In this document: positions 1,427 through 7,194 of the stretch, one piece after another
How the letters are laid out: every line of letters begins with the position of its first letter
Position numbering within the stretch: the stretch's first letter is position 1
From: a virus
Taxonomy: Duplodnaviria; Heunggongvirae; Uroviricota; Caudoviricetes
Reading direction: 5' to 3' (one strand)
Virus record (IMG/VR): IMGVR_UViG_2713896896_000006
Span: 1-10,861 of that record
DNA length: 10,861 nt
Translations under genes and position numbers: made by a program
Notes under the pieces: model-generated
What the model saw: the letters and a program-made list of their open reading frames with translations, nothing else
Databases searched by the model: none
Told to the model about the DNA's origin: nothing

Positions 1427-1891
1427 ATGAACCGGATTCTGTATGGCGTGATTATTGTCCTGCTGATGGTCTGTAGTGCTCTGTGGCTGGCAACAGATCA
1501 TTACCGCGATAACGCCATTACCTACAAAACACAACGCGATGACAATGCCAGAGAGCTGAAACTGGCAGAGGCGATCATTACTGATATGCAGGTGCGCCAG
1601 CGTGACGTTGCTGCACTCGATGCAAAATATTCAAAGGAATTAGCTGATGCGAAAGCTGAAAATGATGCTCTGCGTGATGATATTGCCGCTGGTCGTCGTC
1701 GGTTGCGCATCAGAGCAGTCTGTCCAGCCGTGCGTGAAGCCACCGCCTCCTCCGGCGTGGATGATGCAACCAGCCCCCGACTGGCAGACACCGCTGAACG
1801 GGATTATTTCACCCTCAGAGACCGATTGATGACGATGCAGAAGCAACTGGAAGGGGCACAGCTATACATTCGTGAGCAATGCCTCAGATAA
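1427..1891 (+). CDS. Rz: Rz i-spanin (inner-membrane spanin subunit)
   Basis: Near-colinear match to lambda Rz (HYRDNAITYK..., DVAALDAKY.KELADAKAENDALRDD.AAGRRRL, SPRLADTAERDYFTLR.RL.TMQKQLEG); N-terminal TM helix; start moved to ATG 1427 with AGGTGGTGA upstream rather than the track's 1376. Confidence 0.9.
   Translation: MNRILYGVIIVLLMVCSALWLATDHYRDNAITYKTQRDDNARELKLAEAIITDMQVRQRDVAALDAKYSKELADAKAENDALRDDIAAGRRRLRIRAVCPAVREATASSGVDDATSPRLADTAERDYFTLRDRLMTMQKQLEGAQLYIREQCLR
1647..1829 (+). CDS. Rz1: Rz1 o-spanin lipoprotein, embedded in the +1 frame of Rz
   Basis: Matches lambda Rz1 (KLKMMLCVM.LPLVVVGC, CVKPPPPPAW.MQP.PDWQTPLNGIISPSE); lipobox VVGC; proline-rich mature region; nested-gene arrangement typical of Rz/Rz1. 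Confidence 0.85.
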   Translation: MRKLKMMLCVMILPLVVVGCASEQSVQPCVKPPPPPAWMMQPAPDWQTPLNGIISPSETD

Positions 1892-2423: not shown

Positions 2424-2918
2424 ATGGATCGAGAGTTAAAAAATCTGACGCTGAATATCAGTCAACTGGCGGCACTGTCAGGTGTACATCGCCAGACTGC
2501 TGCGGCAAGGCTGCAAAATCTACCCGTTGCAGGGGGGCATGAAAGCAACCTCAAGCTTTATCGGGTGGTTGATATTGTGTCGGCATTTCTGGCATTACCA
2601 CCGCCGGTTGCAGAAGGCGAAATGGACGCGCATGAGCGCAAAGCCTGGTATCAGTCTGAACGTGAGCGTCTTAAGTTCGAACAGGAAACGGCACAACTCA
2701 TTCCGGCCAGTGATGTCAGACGGGAGTTTGCCATCTGGGCAAAAGCGGTCGTGCAGGTGCTGGAGACATTACCGGATATTCTGGAACGTGACTGTGGTCT
2801 GCAGCCTGCCGCTGTGAGCCGTGTTCAGTCCATTATTGATGATCTGCGCGATCAGATAGCCCTGCGGGTGACCGAAGCAGGTGCGGATGATGAGGAGGAA
2901 TTACAGCAGGAGGAGTAA
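2424..2918 (+). CDS. Terminase small subunit, lambda Nu1-like
   Basis: N-terminal HTH-like segment (LNISQLAALSGVHRQTAAARL) and acidic C-terminus comparable to Nu1; GGAG Shine-Dalgarno; stop overlaps the large terminase start (TAATG). Confidence 0.75.
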   Translation: MDRELKNLTLNISQLAALSGVHRQTAAARLQNLPVAGGHESNLKLYRVVDIVSAFLALPPPVAEGEMDAHERKAWYQSERERLKFEQETAQLIPASDVRREFAIWAKAVVQVLETLPDILERDCGLQPAAVSRVQSIIDDLRDQIALRVTEAGADDEEELQQEE

Positions 2919-3913
2919 TGCTGAATCAGGAAACCGCAAAGGCAGCACGAACCGATTCAGGTTATATCCTTCGCGCACCGAGACGAATGCGGGTTGCTGA
3001 TGCCGTTGCTCAGTATATGCGGGTGCCCATGGGGGCAGGGAACTCAGTCCCGTGGGATCCGCTGGTGGCACCGTATGTTATTGAGCCGATGAACTGCCTG
3101 GCCTCGCGTGAATACGACGCAGTGATATTTGTTGGCCCGGCACGAACCGGCAAGACTATCGGCCTGATTGACGGCTGGGTGATTTACAACGTGATTTGCG
3201 ATCCTGCGGATATGCTGATCATTCAGATGACGGAGGAAAAAGCCCGCGAACACTCCAAAAAACGACTCGCCAGAACGTTTCGCGTCAGCCCGGAAGTGGT
3301 CAGTCGCCTGAGTCCGAACAAAAATGACAACAACGTTTATGACAGAACATTCCTTGCTGGCAACTACCTGAAAATCGGCTGGCCGTCAGTCAATATCATG
3401 TCCTCATCAGATTATAAATGCGTGGCGCTGACGGATTATGACCGTTTTCCGGAAGATATTGATGGCGAGGGGGATGCTTTCTCTCTTGCCTCAAAACGTA
3501 CCACCACATTTATGTCCAGCGGTATGACGCTGGTGGAGAGTTCCCCCGGCAGGGATGTGAAGGATGTGAAATGGCGACGGACTTCACCGCATGAGGCTCC
3601 ACCAACCACGGGGATACTGTCGCTCTATAACCGTGGCGATCGCCGTCGCTGGTACTGGCCCTGTCCACACTGTGGTGAGTTTTTTCAGCCCTGCGGCGAT
3701 GTGGTTGCTGGTTTCCGTGATATTGCCGATCCCGTGCTGGCAAGTGAGGCGGCTTATATTCAGTGTCCTTCCTGTTCAGGACGGATTATGCCTGAACAAA
3801 AACGTGAGCTGAACGGACGTGGGGTCTGGTTGCGGGATGGTGAATCCATCAATGCGGATGGCAGTCGTTATGGTGATCCCCGACGCTCACGTATTGCGTC
3901 ATTCTGGATGTAG
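2918..3913 (+). pseudogene. Terminase large subunit (lambda gpA family), truncated to the N-terminal 331 aa
   Basis: Walker A-like VGPARTGKT; CPHCGE motif (WYWPCPHCGEFF versus lambda FHVACPHCGEEQ); tracks lambda gpA up to about residue 330 (RIASFWM versus VTFHIWTAY) then hits a stop; the remaining ~300 codons are absent and the integrase gene begins 160 bp later. Confidence 0.8.
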
Positions 3914-4074
3914 GGTACATTTCTTACCTGTTTTTATGTTCTGGTGTCGTTTTGTAGTCTTTTCAATGAGTTGTGATTTTTTGTGTTTCCTCTCTTTACT
4001 TGATAATGAGTTAGTTTATCGCTTGTTATCGACTTGAAAGGACTACATGACGGACTAAAAAATGAGGGCGATAG

Positions 4075-5313
4075 ATGCCGGTAAAGCCATTAACCGTGAC
4101 TGAAGTTAAGGGAATGAAACCACGTGAAAAGGACTATGCCGTTTATGATGGATTCGGTTTATTGCTGAATGTGAGTAAAGCTGGTGGGAAAGTGTGGCGT
4201 TTCCGTTATAGCCATCCGATAACGAAGAAACGGCAGACATACACGATAGGGCGTTTTCCTGAATTCTCACTCGCGGAAGCACGGGAAATACGTGATGAAC
4301 TTCGGCGAATGATTGCACGTGGAGTTGATCCAGTGACAGAGAAGAAAAATCGTAAAATTGAGATGTCACTAAAAAATCTACAAACATTTGAAGCTGTTGC
4401 TAATGCATGGATCGCTTTTAAAAAGGGATCGGAATTGCGGAAACCTACGCTGTATAATATCGAATATGAAGTATACAAATATCTTGTTCCTTTCTTTGGT
4501 AAGTACAGCATAGAGAAAATTACAGCGCCAGTAGCTATTAATGCTCTGGATGCCGTATCCGATAAGAATGCGTTGCAAAAAAAATTAATATCAAGATTAA
4601 ATGAAATTATGAATTACGCTGTAAATTGTGGAGCATTGAAAACGAATCCATTACTTAAGATAAAAACTGCATTCACAGGAAAGAAAAATAAATCATTAGC
4701 TGCACTACCTATTGAAAGATTGCCTGAATTTCTGAGCTGGTGGGATAGTGTGCCTCATAAGTATCAAATAGCTCACAATGCACTTTTATTCCAGATATTG
4801 ACAATGGTCAGGCCAGGTGAGGCGATTAAAGCAGAGTGGTCCGAGATTGATTTTGATTCTGGCTTGTGGATTATCCCCGCGCATAAAATGAAATGCCATC
4901 GTGAACATGTTGTGCCTCTCTCATCACAGGCTATTAGAATCCTAAGAACAATGCAGAAAATAAAAAGAGGGCGTTATATATTTTTTTCCTCCAGAACAAA
5001 AGATGCTCCTATGGGAAAGAATACTATCAATACCCCAATTGCTGCCAGCAAGTTCAAAGGGATTGTAACGTTACACGGTTTTCGTTCGATGTGGAGTACG
5101 CTTTTAAATGAGGAGGGTTTTAACCCTGATGTTATTGAGGCTGCATTAGCACATAAAAGTGGTGATAAAATAAGAGATATTTATAATAGAACTACTTATT
5201 TAGAACAACGCAAAATTATGATGCAATGGGTAGGAGATTTTTTTGATGAGGCGAGAAAAGGGGTAATTAATAGATCCGGTGGTAAGAAAGGTTTGAGAAT
5301 AGTAAATGGTTGA
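4075..5313 (+). CDS. int: Tyrosine recombinase, P4-type integrase
   Basis: N-terminal arm-binding-like domain (KDYAVYDGFGLLLNVSKAGGKVWRFRY...TIGRFPEFSLAEAR) and C-terminal catalytic region (HGFRSMWST...H..R..YNRTTY); GAGGG Shine-Dalgarno. Confidence 0.9.
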   Translation: MPVKPLTVTEVKGMKPREKDYAVYDGFGLLLNVSKAGGKVWRFRYSHPITKKRQTYTIGRFPEFSLAEAREIRDELRRMIARGVDPVTEKKNRKIEMSLKNLQTFEAVANAWIAFKKGSELRKPTLYNIEYEVYKYLVPFFGKYSIEKITAPVAINALDAVSDKNALQKKLISRLNEIMNYAVNCGALKTNPLLKIKTAFTGKKNKSLAALPIERLPEFLSWWDSVPHKYQIAHNALLFQILTMVRPGEAIKAEWSEIDFDSGLWIIPAHKMKCHREHVVPLSSQAIRILRTMQKIKRGRYIFFSSRTKDAPMGKNTINTPIAASKFKGIVTLHGFRSMWSTLLNEEGFNPDVIEAALAHKSGDKIRDIYNRTTYLEQRKIMMQWVGDFFDEARKGVINRSGGKKGLRIVNG

Positions 5314-5325
5314 GGAGTTCAGCAA

Positions 5326-5529
5326 ATGAATACCAATGAAGATATTTTATTTACTAAAGACGTAATGAAAATTTTGCGCTATGGGGCAATGAGCGCATTC
5401 ATCAATTTCTGGAAAGATGAAAATAATGGTTTTCCTCAACCGTTCAGAATTGGGCGGCGGCATACCTGGCACCGTAGAGATGTAGAGGCATGGTTAGATA
5501 AACAACGAGAACAGGCCAATCCCCACTAA
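5326..5529 (+). CDS. alpA: AlpA-family DNA-binding regulator/excisionase-like protein
   Basis: 67 aa, directly downstream of int; AlpA-like HTH with a ...HRRDVEAWLDKQ tail; GAGGAG Shine-Dalgarno. Confidence 0.7.
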   Translation: MNTNEDILFTKDVMKILRYGAMSAFINFWKDENNGFPQPFRIGRRHTWHRRDVEAWLDKQREQANPH

Positions 5530-5543
5530 TAATATCTTTCATA

Positions 5544-5568
5544 CCCCGCACGCAATGCGGGGTTTTTT
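5544..5568 (+). terminator. Intrinsic terminator after alpA
   Basis: CCCCGCA / CGCAA / TGCGGGG followed by TTTTTT. Confidence 0.8.
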
Positions 5569-5587
5569 GTATGTGAGGTAAAAAACG

Positions 5588-6169
5588 ATGAATAAAAATA
5601 TTGCCGTGACGGGCAAGGGGTACGCTCGTTCAGTAAAAAAATTCTGCGATATTCGTGATCTTGTCGTTCTGCGCTTTGATGGCGTGGATGTTCGTGTGGT
5701 GTATCTGAACGGCGATCCGTGGTTTGTTGCAAAGGATGTTTGTGAAGCTCTGGAAATAAGCAACTCACGCGATGCTCTAAAAGCTCTGGATGTGGATGAG
5801 AAGAATACCGTCGCTTTAAGCTACGGTATTCGCGGAAATCCAAATCATAGCGTCGTTTCTGAATCTGGTTTTTACAAGCTGATCGCCAGAAGTCGCAAAG
5901 CTGTTACTCCTGGCACGTTCGCCCATCGTTTCAGTAACTGGGTATTCAGGAATGTGATACCAGGTATCAGAAAAACGGGGGCTTATGGTATCCCGTGGGG
6001 TGCATTACAGGATTTTTCCCGCCGTAAAGAGCAATATCAAATAAGTGCCAGCGAGAAGGGGAGGGAGCTACAGGCATGTAAGCGCAAAAAGCGTGAGCTG
6101 GAGGAAGAAGAAAAAAGGCTGATACGTGAATATCAGCCTGAGTTTTACTTTGGTGAGCGTATTCAGTAA
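5588..6169 (+). CDS. Bro-N domain protein (antirepressor-like)
   Basis: N-terminal Bro-N signature (FDGVDVRVVYLNGDPWFVAKDVCEALEI...VVSESGFYKLIARSRKA) with a charged, coiled-coil-like C-terminus; GAGGT Shine-Dalgarno. Confidence 0.7.
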   Translation: MNKNIAVTGKGYARSVKKFCDIRDLVVLRFDGVDVRVVYLNGDPWFVAKDVCEALEISNSRDALKALDVDEKNTVALSYGIRGNPNHSVVSESGFYKLIARSRKAVTPGTFAHRFSNWVFRNVIPGIRKTGAYGIPWGALQDFSRRKEQYQISASEKGRELQACKRKKRELEEEEKRLIREYQPEFYFGERIQ

Positions 6170-6344
6170 CCACGCGCATTGCTGATTATACGATACATCG
6201 TGTTAACCGGGAAGCTCCCCACCAGCAAGGCAAAATCTTCTGCTAAAAAATGACATATGAGCAGCCGTCCTGAAAGCATGAAGTTTTGCAGGAATAGATG
6301 CTGCAGTTCTTTATTTTATCAATTGGACTTTAGATAAAAGTAAA

Positions 6345-6380
6345 GGCGACCGAGGTGGTCGCCAGTTTTATTTTTATATT
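6345..6380. terminator. Bidirectional intrinsic terminator between the convergent Bro-N and membrane-protein genes
   Basis: GGCGACC / GAGGT / GGTCGCC flanked by an A-rich run upstream and a T-rich run downstream. Confidence 0.7.
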
Positions 6381-6385
6381 TTTCC

Positions 6386-6829
6386 CTATTGCATCAACAA
6401 TGAATGTCTTATCCACATTACGAGGGATGGAATAATTTTTATGTATCCGCCATATGCCCATATAATGGTGCCAAAAACAGTTAGTCCAACCCCGAGTACT
6501 TCAGCTTTTATTTCCTCTCTGACCTCAACTCGAGCTTTAGCTAAGTTTTCTTCTCGTATCTTTTGTGATTCTTCCGCAGACAATGGCGGGCCAGTTACGC
6601 CACTGCGTGAATTAATTTCAGCTTCGCGATTAGATAATTTTTTTAAAGTTGTGAACTTGATTGTATACAACAATCCAAAAACTGAAATAATTGCACCTGA
6701 GCTGGCGAATAGATTCATATCATTAAGATATTGGCCGAACAAAAAGCTTGCTCCACAAAAAACACATAATATGGCAATGGATGTTTTTGCACCGAGTATT
6801 TTTAGTAATATTGTTCTAAATCTCTTCAT
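6386..6829 (-). CDS. Hypothetical multi-pass membrane protein (147 aa)
   Basis: Three to four hydrophobic helices around a charged central loop (SAEESQKIREENLAKARVEVREEIKAE); AT-rich codon usage; second gene of a minus-strand pair after the ribbon-helix-helix gene. No family recognised. Confidence 0.6.
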   Translation of the reverse strand: MKRFRTILLKILGAKTSIAILCVFCGASFLFGQYLNDMNLFASSGAIISVFGLLYTIKFTTLKKLSNREAEINSRSGVTGPPLSAEESQKIREENLAKARVEVREEIKAEVLGVGLTVFGTIIWAYGGYIKIIPSLVMWIRHSLLMQ

Positions 6830-6860
6830 TGTTAATATATCCTATCATAGAAGTAGTAAT

Positions 6861-7055
6861 TCACCCCTTAGGTTCGATACCGCGCCGCTTTAGTTCGGAG
6901 CGCCCTAACTCTTTAAGCCAGTTAGCAAGGCTTACACCATCATTATTAGCCTCGCTATCAAACTGTTCTTTCAGTTCTGGAGCTATACGCATATGGAAAG
7001 GGGGAGCCTTTCCTGTCCCTTTGGGTTTTTTATCGCGTTTAATTATTGTTGACAT
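6861..7055 (-). CDS. Ribbon-helix-helix (Arc/CopG-like) DNA-binding protein, candidate island repressor
   Basis: Basic N-tail then a beta-strand/helix pattern (FHMRIAPELKEQFDSEANNDGVSLANWLKEL) typical of RHH proteins; AGGTG Shine-Dalgarno; start codon lies inside the palindromic operator region. Confidence 0.6.
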   Translation of the reverse strand: MSTIIKRDKKPKGTGKAPPFHMRIAPELKEQFDSEANNDGVSLANWLKELGRSELKRRGIEPKG

Positions 7056-7113
7056 GTGTACACCTATGGCGTTATGTTTTCATTCGATAGGTGTACACAT
7101 TAACACGTGTGCA
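7049..7113 (+). promoter_or_regulatory. Divergent switch region: rightward sigma70-like promoter overlapped by palindromic operators
   Basis: -35 TTGACA at 7049-7054, 18-bp spacer, -10-like TATGTT; self-complementary GTGTACAC at 7056-7063 and 7091-7098 (12-bp perfect inverted arms 19 bp apart) and ACACGTGT at 7103-7110. Confidence 0.55.
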
Positions 7114-7194
7114 TTTAATAACGCAACGCCCCGCAGTGCTGGAACACATGCAGGGCGTCTAACCACCAACGATAGCAACAGTATCGAGGTAGCT

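What the first reader, a model, noticed from the sequence alone, without database searches (positions are those of the whole stretch)
6386..7055. Minus-strand pair: ribbon-helix-helix protein followed by an AT-rich multi-pass membrane protein
A 64-aa RHH protein followed 31 bp later by a 147-aa membrane protein resembles an antitoxin/toxin or repressor/effector pair. The RHH gene starts inside the palindromic operator region, so it may autoregulate and also repress the rightward replication operon. The membrane protein could be a superinfection-exclusion, abortive-infection or membrane-depolarising effector; its low GC content suggests separately acquired cargo.
Basis: inference. Interest (0 to 1): 0.6.

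Follow-up and report, generated by a model that had tools for sequence, protein, structure and literature searches.

The report
Satellite repressor with swappable membrane-protein cargo
The small DNA-binding protein is most likely the on/off repressor of a phage satellite sitting inside an E. coli prophage, and the membrane protein after it is an exchangeable passenger gene of unknown function rather than a toxin partner.

Summary
Both minus-strand genes are real and lie where stated: RHH 6861-7055, 31-bp gap, 3-TM protein 6386-6829 at 37% GC. They sit in a helper-embedded PICI satellite inserted into a prophage terL gene.

The 64-aa protein is an Arc/Mnt-type ribbon-helix-helix repressor. Two copies of the palindrome GTGTACAC lie 35 bp apart. 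One abuts its start codon and fills the spacer of a conserved rightward promoter, whose -35 TTGACA is encoded by RHH codons 1-3. Across about 64 distinct Enterobacterales loci, the operator core changes together with the residues that align to Arc's base-contacting positions. This supports autoregulation and repression of the Icd-like/replication operon, but only by comparison.

The toxin-antitoxin reading is not supported:
- The membrane gene follows the RHH in 1 of 80 species-level loci.
- In E. coli the membrane gene is in 4 complete genomes and this RHH family in 283.
- In Xenorhabdus the two genes are on opposite strands.
- The RHH has no toxin-binding tail.

The 549 bp after the RHH stop codon form a variable slot holding roughly 18 other ORF families.

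The membrane protein belongs to a small uncharacterised family found on mobile elements. A superinfection-exclusion or defence role, by analogy with P22 mnt-sieA, is inference only.

The parts
6861..7055 (-). 64-aa Arc/Mnt-type ribbon-helix-helix protein, the candidate repressor of the satellite
   Evidence: ORF. Profile match to P22 Arc over Arc residues 2-49 (E=5e-4) and to Mnt (0.17). phrog_228 Arc-like repressor, 9e-6. HicB Pfam match is below cut-off, 18 against 21 bits. This RHH family is detectable in 283 of 5426 E. coli genomes and in 141 confirmed stretches across Enterobacterales species genomes, of which the best 80 were kept.
6386..6829 (-). 147-aa three-TM inner-membrane protein with a roughly 50-aa cytoplasmic helical hairpin; the cargo gene
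   Evidence: ORF. Hydropathy and charge. AF2 pLDDT 88.6, pTM 0.75. The family has 68 cluster representatives at E<=1e-3 among 1.84 billion. No Pfam, PHROG, NCBIfam or PADLOC family.
6316..6864 (.). Variable cargo slot (cassette): 31-bp spacer, membrane gene and its terminator
   Evidence: Homology to a related island (L009) stops at 6315 and resumes at 6865. Most E. coli relatives match only from 6861-6871 rightwards.
6345..6363 (.). Bidirectional intrinsic terminator ending the leftward RHH-cargo transcript
   Evidence: GGCGACCGAGGTGGTCGCC with T-runs on both strands.
7054..7067 (.). Operator O1 (core palindrome GTGTACAC, 7056-7063). It abuts the RHH start codon and lies in the spacer of the rightward promoter
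   Evidence: The core co-varies with RHH beta-strand residues across loci.
7087..7100 (.). Operator O2 (core GTGTACAC, 7091-7098), 35 bp from O1. It overlaps the 3' end of the proposed leftward -10
   Evidence: A second copy lies 33-35 bp upstream in most relatives.
7049..7078 (+). Rightward promoter P_R (TTGACA-18-TATGTT) for the Icd-like/replication operon. The -35 is the complement of RHH codons 1-3
   Evidence: Promoter scan, 10 of 12 matches. TTGACA followed by 17 or 18 nt and TAnnnT is present in 61 of 69 distinct relatives.
7097..7126 (-). Proposed leftward promoter P_L for the RHH and cargo (TTGCGT-18-TGtTAATGT, extended -10 at 7105-7097)
   Evidence: TGnTAnnnT is found at -50 to -47 from the RHH start in 40 of 69 distinct relatives and almost nowhere else in 130 nt. 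The -35 assignment is my inference. The consensus scan did not call this site.
7115..7210 (-). Candidate cis-antisense small RNA. Promoter TGgTATGAT at 7210-7202, start near 7195, terminator hairpin 7158-7126 plus a U-run. It is complementary to the Icd-like ribosome-binding site and start codon
   Evidence: Sequence. RNAalifold on 17 loci gave 21 pairs, 11 with compensatory changes, and G-U as the commonest pair at 3 positions, which favours this strand. Full-length but sub-threshold SymR-like match, 21.7 bits against 61.
7195..7401 (+). Icd-like gene, first gene of the rightward operon controlled from P_R
   Evidence: RefSeq product name in the identical genome. ORF. 91% identical to the same gene of EcCICFT073.

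Best explanation
The pair is a repressor-plus-passenger operon of a phage satellite (a helper-embedded PICI), not a toxin-antitoxin system.

The RHH (inferred from comparison). It is an Arc/Mnt-type repressor whose dimers bind two 8-bp palindromes, O1 and O2, 35 bp apart.
- O1 lies between the -35 and -10 of the rightward promoter. Binding there should keep the Icd-like, DUF4222, helicase and SSB replication operon silent in the quiescent island.
- O2 overlaps the extended -10 and start of the leftward promoter, so the RHH should limit its own synthesis.
- The two promoters face each other, with start points only a few bases apart, so only one can be occupied at a time.

The cargo (shown: it is a swappable cassette; inferred: how it is expressed). 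The membrane gene lies in a recombinationally variable slot between the RHH stop codon and a terminator. No terminator lies between the RHH stop and the membrane gene. The one promoter-like match in that stretch (6835-6807) has its -10 after the gene's start codon, so I discount it. The gene should therefore be made, together with the repressor, exactly when the island is dormant.

Function of the membrane protein (speculative). That expression logic matches lambda cI-rexAB and P22 mnt-sieA. The most likely role is protection of the host and island at the inner membrane, by superinfection exclusion or another anti-phage or anti-element effect. It would work as a small oligomerising 3-TM protein with a cytoplasmic helical hairpin.
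For: Element identity:
- int, AlpA-like HTH, BRO-N, AAA_25 helicase and SSB follow a truncated terL.
- This matches the four-zone HE-PICI layout of PMC10111431.
- Iterons follow the helicase gene.

RHH fold:
- Profile match to Arc (5e-4) and Mnt.
- Arc-like PHROG family.

Operators:
- Perfect inverted repeat.
- GTGTACAC occurs twice against 0.09 expected.
- 11 classes of residues at the Arc Q9/N11-equivalent positions each have their own core. Examples: P/H with GTGTACAC, T/Q with GTACGTAC, Q/K with GTGGCCAC, M/N with GTCTATAC, Q/R with GTGACCAC.
- Pairs of loci with the same residues share the core in 336 of 469 cases. Pairs with different residues share it in 25 of 1547.

Promoters:
- TTGACA-17/18-TAnnnT in 61 of 69 distinct relatives.
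- TGnTAnnnT fixed at -50 to -47 in 40 of 69.

Cargo slot:
- Breakpoints at 6315/6316 and 6864/6865.
- 54 downstream ORFs of at least 60 aa fall into 20 clusters. They include SWIM, DUF4225, Hcp, DUF6998 and a PemK fusion.
- About a third of loci have no downstream ORF.
- The RHH is 88-91% identical in islands carrying other cargo. The nearest membrane homologue (81%) sits behind an RHH only 61% identical.

Precedent: P22 immI has mnt (RHH) followed on the same strand by sieA, divergent from Pant-arc-ant, with the antisense sar RNA.

Family context. Close and distant homologues were found on PICIs, small Acinetobacter plasmids, a relaxase-bearing element, and one locus flanked by ordinary chromosomal genes. 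One homologue is fused to an Mrr-type nuclease.
Against: - Nothing here shows DNA binding, repression or co-transcription experimentally.
- The operator covariation is confounded by shared ancestry of the loci.
- The leftward promoter was not called by the consensus scan, and its -35 is weak.
- The membrane protein has no match in 50,697 phage genomes, in the PADLOC defence models or in solved and viral structure libraries. It is not homologous to SieA. The defence role therefore rests on position and analogy alone.
- The close PICI-borne homologues nearly always sit directly behind an RHH. This could still reflect a functional tie.
Confidence: 0.6

Rival explanations
1. A type II toxin-antitoxin-like pair. 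The membrane protein is a depolarising toxin, and the RHH both represses the operon and neutralises the toxin.
For: - NCBI names close RHH homologues 'HicB family antitoxin'.
- The order is small RHH first, effector second, with a tight 31-57-bp spacing in PICIs.
- A distant homologue fused to an Mrr nuclease follows a HigA-like HTH.
- Acinetobacter plasmids carrying homologues are rich in TA modules.
Against: - The membrane gene follows the RHH in 1 of 80 species-level loci. In E. coli it is in 4 genomes against 283 with the RHH.
- In Xenorhabdus the two genes are on opposite strands with alpA between them.
- The whole 64-aa protein aligns to the 53-aa Arc, leaving no C-terminal toxin-binding tail.
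- There is no HicB N-terminal domain and no hicA. The Pfam HicB match is below cut-off.
- The slot holds many unrelated genes.
Confidence: 0.08
2. The membrane protein serves the satellite's own life cycle. It might alter lysis timing (holin- or antiholin-like), or block DNA entry of competing satellites or of the helper, rather than defend the host in general.
For: - The island is embedded in the helper's late operon next to the lysis genes.
- It is a small 3-TM protein with glycine- and serine-rich helices.
- 4 of 49 family members give weak Phage_holin_3_6 matches, the best at E=0.0015.
- An E. coli PICI is reported to give superinfection immunity against its helper (PMC11773190 abstract).
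Against: - The gene is dispensable. Most islands with the same RHH lack it.
- The topology (N-in, long cytoplasmic loop) is unlike class I holins (holin topology from my own knowledge).
- It is predicted to be expressed with the repressor, in the dormant state, not late.
- The window protein's own holin match is noise (E=0.48).
Confidence: 0.15
3. Host-adaptive or neutral cargo unrelated to phages, for example an envelope-stress or niche factor that happens to occupy a permissive slot.
For: - The slot also carries genes with no obvious phage link, such as Hcp, a SWIM protein and small basic proteins.
- The family also occurs on small plasmids and at one chromosomal site.
- It gives no defence-model match.
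Against: - The family is rare and found almost only on mobile elements.
- One member is fused to an Mrr-type restriction nuclease domain.
- Co-expression with the repressor is the classic position of exclusion and abortive-infection genes (for P22; lambda rexAB from my own knowledge).
Confidence: 0.15
4. The real gene is the plus-strand 150-aa ORF 6441-6893, and the 'membrane protein' is its shadow.
For: - The antisense frame has no stop across the gene in 6 of 7 homologues despite 35-37% GC.
- My crude codon-usage gene finder preferred it.
- RefSeq annotates a similar antisense ORF over the RHH in EDL933.
Against: - Synonymous shuffles expect only 1.3-3 stops, so the open frame is mostly a composition effect.
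- In the 53%-identical homologue the antisense frame is broken (6 stops within the CDS, 7 including flanks), while the membrane ORF and its motifs are intact.
- The sense protein yields a 68-representative family and a confident fold.
Confidence: 0.02

Closest known systems
Phage P22 immI region: mnt - orf59a - sieA, divergent from Pant - arc - ant, with the antisense sar RNA
   Same: - An RHH repressor gene faces away from the operon it represses, and its operators overlap the promoters.
- A small multi-pass inner-membrane protein gene lies downstream on the repressor's strand.
- A short antisense RNA covers a ribosome-binding site in the repressed operon (for P22; here).
- The RHH aligns to Arc and Mnt.
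   Different: - The membrane protein is not homologous to SieA (hhalign probability 0.65%) and has a different TM order.
- P22 sieA has its own promoter after a terminator. Here no terminator separates the genes.
- P22 uses two RHH proteins (Mnt and Arc). Only one is seen here.
- The repressed operon starts with an Icd-like gene and runs into replication genes, not an antirepressor.
- The element is a satellite, not a phage.
Gram-negative PICIs and helper-embedded PICIs (EcCICFT073, EcCIEDL933; PMC6092414, PMC10111431)
   Same: - Same backbone: int, alpA, Bro zone, Icd-like, DUF4222, primase or helicase, SSB, iteron origin and late genes.
- Insertion inside a prophage late gene.
- EcCIEDL933 carries an intact RHH of this family.
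- EcCICFT073 has a YlcI/YnfO-type small protein with its own direct repeats in the same place.
   Different: - The papers I could read do not assign a repressor. [quoted passage not shown]
- They place defence cargo downstream of pri, not behind this gene.
- A 2026 survey lists such genes as HicB toxin-antitoxin modules.
Repressor-linked 'moron' operons such as lambda cI-rexA-rexB
   Same: An accessory gene rides on the maintenance-repressor transcript, so it is expressed in the dormant state. The cargo is dispensable for the element. The lambda part is from my own knowledge.
   Different: The repressor fold differs (RHH against HTH). The cargo is a single small membrane protein with no partner and no similarity to RexB.
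RHH antitoxins (HicB C-terminal domain, ParD, CcdA, RelB type)
   Same: The RHH DNA-binding fold, and autoregulation through palindromic operators.
   Different: There is no toxin-binding extension or HicB N-domain, no conserved partner gene, and the Pfam HicB match is below threshold.

Membership tests
Arc/MetJ (ribbon-helix-helix) repressors | Sequence match of the beta-alpha-alpha module to known members | tested here: met
   The profile of 15 homologues matches Arc over residues 2-49 (E=5e-4), Mnt (0.17) and an Arc-family protein, 9pio (0.26). phrog_228 Arc-like repressor, 9e-6. The scores are modest.
Arc/MetJ (ribbon-helix-helix) repressors | Repeated or palindromic operator at its own promoter, read by the N-terminal beta-strand | tested here: met
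   Two palindromes lie 35 bp apart at the start codon. The core co-varies with the residues aligned to Arc Q9 and N11 in 64 distinct loci. This is comparative evidence only.
Arc/MetJ (ribbon-helix-helix) repressors | Dimeric beta-ribbon fold and DNA binding | not testable with these tools
Binding needs a gel-shift or footprinting experiment.
HicB family antitoxin (NCBI's name for close homologues) | N-terminal HicB (HicA-binding) domain and an adjacent hicA toxin gene | tested here: not met
   The protein is only 64 aa, all aligned to Arc. Pfam HicB scores 18 bits against a 21-bit cut-off and covers only the RHH part. None of the neighbouring ORFs scanned matched a HicA family.
Type II toxin-antitoxin module | The two genes are inherited together as a unit | tested here: not met
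   The membrane gene follows the RHH in 1 of 80 species-level RHH loci. In E. coli it is in 4 genomes against 283 with the RHH. The two are unlinked in Xenorhabdus.
Type II toxin-antitoxin module | The toxin arrests growth and the antitoxin protein neutralises it | not testable with these tools
   This needs inducible expression with and without the RHH.
Helper-embedded PICI / Gram-negative PICI | int + alpA, a Bro zone, a replication zone with SSB and an iteron origin, insertion in and co-orientation with a prophage late gene | tested here: met
   terL is truncated at 3913 and int starts at 4075. The layout is as in PMC10111431. Helper-dependent mobilisation was not tested.
P22 SieA superinfection-exclusion protein | Sequence homology | tested here: not met
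   hhalign of the 49-sequence profile against SieA gave probability 0.65%. tblastn against 50,697 phage records found nothing at E<=10.
Holins (Pfam holin families) | Match to a holin model, and a position in a lysis cassette | tested here: not met
   The window protein scores E=0.48 to Phage_holin_3_6. 4 of 49 relatives match weakly, the best at 0.0015. The gene is not in the lysis cassette at 598-1891.
Known anti-phage defence systems (PADLOC v2), including membrane effectors | Match to a defence protein model | tested here: not met
   Only HEC-01B at E=0.035 (window protein) and 0.0073 (best of 3 members). No SLATT-type or other 2-TM effector Pfam model was among the 25 best-represented of the 46 families matched at E<=1.

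The most novel reading that the evidence does not exclude
The RHH, its two co-varying operators, the face-to-face promoters and the antisense RNA over the Icd-like start may together form an immI-like immunity switch.
- This switch would be the missing 'master repressor' system of a large class of Gram-negative PICIs.
- It appears to exist in exchangeable specificity types: at least 11 residue/operator classes, plus a YlcI/YnfO-type alternative in EcCICFT073.
- The slot behind the repressor would be an unrecognised hotspot of dormant-state cargo.
- Its members, including this 3-TM family, could include new phage-exclusion or abortive-infection effectors.
Probability: 0.3. Interest if true: 0.7.

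Novelty: new member of a known kind. Interest (0 to 1): 0.45.

Why it matters
For Gram-negative PICIs the published picture is an activator (AlpA) and no clear repressor. A conserved Arc-like protein whose operators sit on the replication-operon promoter is a concrete, cheap-to-test candidate for what keeps these widespread satellites silent and what sets their immunity type.

It also corrects a recurring database label, 'HicB antitoxin', and a RefSeq call on the wrong strand in EDL933.

Finally, it marks a short, sharply bounded slot where satellites carry dormant-state cargo of unknown function. That makes the slot a compact place to look for new exclusion or defence genes.

Tried and rejected
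- **Family searches on the membrane protein.** Pfam, PHROGs, NCBIfam and PADLOC gave nothing usable.
- **Phage genomes.** tblastn against 50,697 phage genomes found no match. A profile comparison with P22 SieA was negative.
- **Rfam.** A scan of the whole window for C4, isrK or P4 CI-type immunity RNAs found none.
- **Small upstream ORF.** A 56-aa ORF precedes a fused homologue on a relaxase-bearing element. It is not RHH-like.
- **Antisense 150-aa ORF.** I took it seriously, then set it aside after synonymous shuffling and inspection of the divergent homologue.
- **My own gene finder.** A codon-usage gene finder mis-called AT-rich cargo. I replaced it with a plain ORF survey.
- **Correction of an early figure.** My first reading that the RHH is in 1020 E. 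coli genomes was wrong. Much of that match is to the Icd-like/hairpin segment, which EcCICFT073 shares without this RHH. The RHH itself is detectable in 283.
Full report
**What is in the sequence**

The window is E. coli DNA. The 1,051-bp stretch 6200-7250 is 100% identical to strain UK_Dog_Liverpool. From left to right it holds prophage lysis genes, a DUF1441 small terminase and a large-terminase gene that stops abruptly at 3913. Then comes an island:
- integrase (4075-5313)
- AlpA-like HTH (5326-5529)
- BRO-N protein (5588-6169)
- the minus-strand pair in question
- an Icd-like gene (7195-7401), small ORFs and a DUF4222 protein
- an AAA_25/RepA-type helicase (8344-9759), six iterons (9758-9950) and SSB

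[quoted passage not shown] Such elements have Integration, Bro, Replication and Late zones (PMC10111431). The pair lies in the 'Bro' (dynamic) zone.

The 64-aa ORF (6861-7055, -) and the 147-aa ORF (6386-6829, -) are 31 bp apart, and RefSeq annotates both. The second gene has 36.9% GC.

Three lines of evidence fit an N-in/C-out inner-membrane protein:
- three hydrophobic segments
- five basic residues before the first segment
- a 52-residue charged stretch between the second and third

With 49 homologues, AlphaFold2 gives pLDDT 88.6. TM2 and TM3 extend into a cytoplasmic helical hairpin joined by the conserved loop SGVTGPPLS.

A perfect 14-bp inverted repeat (7054-7067 / 7087-7100) covers the RHH start codon. 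Its 8-bp palindromic core GTGTACAC occurs only at these two places in the window. A bidirectional terminator (6345-6363) follows the membrane gene.

**The small protein is an Arc/Mnt-type repressor**

A profile of 15 homologues matches P22 Arc over nearly its whole length (E=5e-4), and also Mnt. PHROGs gives 'Arc-like repressor'.

NCBI names close homologues 'HicB family antitoxin'. That label does not fit. The protein consists only of the RHH module plus a basic N-terminal arm, and the Pfam HicB match is below threshold.

I fetched 80 loci from different Enterobacterales species. In most of them the gene has the same setting:
- The start codon region reads (A/G/T)TGTCAAC. Its complement is TTGACA.
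- 17-18 bp to the right there is a TAnnnT hexamer in 61 of 69 distinct sequences. In the window this is TTGACA-18-TATGTT (7049-7078), which the promoter scan also found.
- One palindrome fills that promoter's spacer. A second copy lies 33-35 bp further on.

The core sequence differs between lineages. It tracks the two residues that align with Arc's base-contacting Gln9 and Asn11:

| Residues | Core |
|---|---|
| P/H | GTGTACAC |
| T/Q | GTACGTAC |
| Q/K | GTGGCCAC |
| Q/R | GTGACCAC |
| A/Q | GTACACAC |
| M/N, L/N | GTCTATAC |
| I/S | GTCCATAC |
| M/P | GCATATAC |

Pairs of loci with the same residues share the core in 336 of 469 cases. Pairs with different residues share it in 25 of 1547. Shared ancestry inflates this, but the pattern is what a beta-strand-reads-operator model predicts.

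An extended -10 (TGnTAnnnT) sits at a fixed position, -50 to -47 from the RHH start. It overlaps the outer edge of the distal operator in 40 of 69 sequences. I take it as the leftward promoter.

On this reading the two promoters face each other with start points a few bases apart. The RHH would shut the replication promoter at O1 and limit its own promoter at O2. These steps are inferred. Nothing here measures binding or transcription.

**Not a toxin-antitoxin pair**
- Among the 80 species-level RHH loci, only one (Kluyvera) has the membrane gene behind the RHH.
- In complete E. coli genomes the RHH family is detectable in 283 and the membrane gene in 4.
- In Xenorhabdus ishibashii the membrane gene follows the integrase on the other strand, with alpA between it and the RHH.
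- More distant homologues were found without an RHH partner in the contexts examined: small Acinetobacter plasmids, a relaxase-bearing element, and a fusion to an Mrr-type nuclease preceded by a HigA-like HTH.
- The RHH has no residues left over for binding a toxin.

**The cargo slot**

Homology between the window and a sister island stops at 6315 and resumes at 6865, four bases inside the 3' end of the RHH gene. Most E. coli relatives match only from 6861-6871 rightwards.

In the surveyed loci, the first co-directional ORFs of at least 60 aa after the RHH fall into 20 clusters. These include a SWIM-finger protein, DUF4225, an Hcp, DUF6998, a PemK/MazF-domain fusion and a 128-aa membrane protein. 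About a third of loci have no ORF there. EcCIEDL933 and EcCICFT073 carry a 57-62-aa basic protein there.

Repressor and cargo assort independently. RHHs 88-91% identical to the window's carry other cargo. The closest membrane homologue (81%) sits behind an RHH only 61% identical.

No terminator lies in the 31-bp gap, and one follows the membrane gene. The promoter scan did list one site in this stretch (6835-6807, 9 of 12 matches). I discount it because its -10 falls after the gene's start codon. So the cargo is most simply read as part of the repressor transcript.

**What the membrane protein might do**

The family is small: 17 close proteins and 68 cluster representatives at E<=1e-3 among 1.84 billion. 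It has two signature motifs:
- N-[LI]-F-[AS]-[SA]-S-G at the start of TM2
- G-T-x-[IV]-W-A-Y-G in TM3

It matches no curated family or defence model, no phage genome and no solved fold beyond generic helical bundles.

Three things are suggestive: its position behind a maintenance repressor, its confinement to mobile elements, and the nuclease fusion. Together they make a dormant-state protective role (superinfection exclusion or another anti-phage effect) the best guess.

The closest architectural precedent is P22 immI. There the RHH repressor gene mnt is followed on the same strand by sieA, opposite the Pant-arc-ant operon. SieA itself is not homologous. This functional assignment is analogy, and I rate it well below the regulatory part.

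**Relation to the literature**

[quoted passage not shown] Searches of the held library found no paper linking ribbon-helix-helix proteins to PICIs. A 2026 survey lists such genes as HicB toxin-antitoxin modules. Known PICI defence cargo is placed downstream of pri (PMC11364771).

EcCIEDL933 has an intact RHH of this family, although RefSeq annotates an overlapping ORF on the other strand.

EcCICFT073 shares the Icd-like segment at 91% identity. In place of this RHH it has a YlcI/YnfO-type small protein with its own direct repeats, AGGTGTGGCCCAC twice. That suggests the repressor-operator block is itself an exchangeable immunity cassette.

**Side finding that belongs to the same switch**

A conserved element lies on the minus strand between the operators and the Icd-like gene. 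It has an extended -10 promoter (TGgTATGAT, 7210-7202) and a start opposite the Icd-like ATG. A first hairpin follows. In most relatives its loop holds the CUCC anti-Shine-Dalgarno sequence, while in the window CCUC lies just 5' of the stem. A terminator hairpin (7158-7126) with a U-run ends the element.

In 17 diverse loci, 11 of 21 predicted pairs show compensatory changes. Three positions are mostly G-U, which fits this strand and not the other. Rfam gives only a full-length, sub-threshold SymR-like match.

It looks like a cis-antisense RNA against the Icd-like ribosome-binding site, comparable to P22 sar.

**Verdict**

The effector role is open.

As a kind of thing (an immunity repressor with a passenger gene in a satellite) it is familiar. 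The specific families, the co-varying operator types and the slot appear not to have been described.

Noticed in passing
window 2918-4075 (terL fragment 2918-3913, int from 4075); also L009, L011: The island is inserted inside the prophage large-terminase gene. Sister islands interrupt major-capsid genes and carry their own capsid genes at the right end. This matches the published helper-embedded PICIs.
   Followed up: partly
window 7115-7210, minus strand: Candidate 75-80-nt cis-antisense RNA over the Icd-like ribosome-binding site and start codon. It has an extended -10 TGgTATGAT, two hairpins and a U-run terminator. Compensatory changes occur in 11 of 21 pairs across 17 loci. Rfam gives only a sub-threshold SymR-like match.
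   Followed up: partly
window 6441-6893 (+), antisense to the membrane gene; also L002 6578-8605: A stop-free antisense frame runs across the whole membrane gene in 6 of 7 homologues despite about 36% GC. Synonymous shuffling shows this is mostly a composition effect, and the frame is broken in the most divergent homologue.
   Followed up: yes
L109 (E. coli O157:H7 EDL933) 5554-6297 (+) against 5997-6188 (-): RefSeq annotates a 247-aa plus-strand hypothetical protein lying over an intact 63-aa RHH ORF (TTG start) of this family in the PICI EcCIEDL933. This is probably a call on the wrong strand.
   Followed up: partly
L101 (E. coli CFT073) 10243-10870, compared with window 7120-7384: EcCICFT073 shares the hairpin and Icd-like segment at 91% identity. 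In place of the RHH and its palindromes it has a YlcI/YnfO-type 59-aa protein and two direct repeats AGGTGTGGCCCAC. This suggests exchangeable repressor-operator cassettes.
   Followed up: partly
window 9758-9950: Six copies of AAAAGTGGG(G/T)A, in two identical 26-bp blocks 168 bp apart plus two central copies, lie just after the helicase gene in a 40% GC stretch. This is the expected iteron-type PICI replication origin.
   Followed up: partly
L055-L070, L077 (Pantoea and Erwinia): A divergent branch of the RHH family (48-57% identity) lacks the MST/TTGACA start arrangement. It sits directly upstream of what look like a membrane-fusion protein and an 11-TM, 1044-aa RND-type pump, so it is apparently used in a non-satellite context.
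   Followed up: no
window 6116-6139: A second hairpin with T-runs on both strands lies inside the 3' end of the BRO-N gene, upstream of the slot terminator.
   Followed up: no
window 1647-1829 within 1376-1891: A 60-aa ORF with a lipoprotein-like signal (LVVVGC) is embedded out of frame in the Rz-like gene, the usual Rz/Rz1 spanin arrangement of the helper prophage.
   Followed up: no
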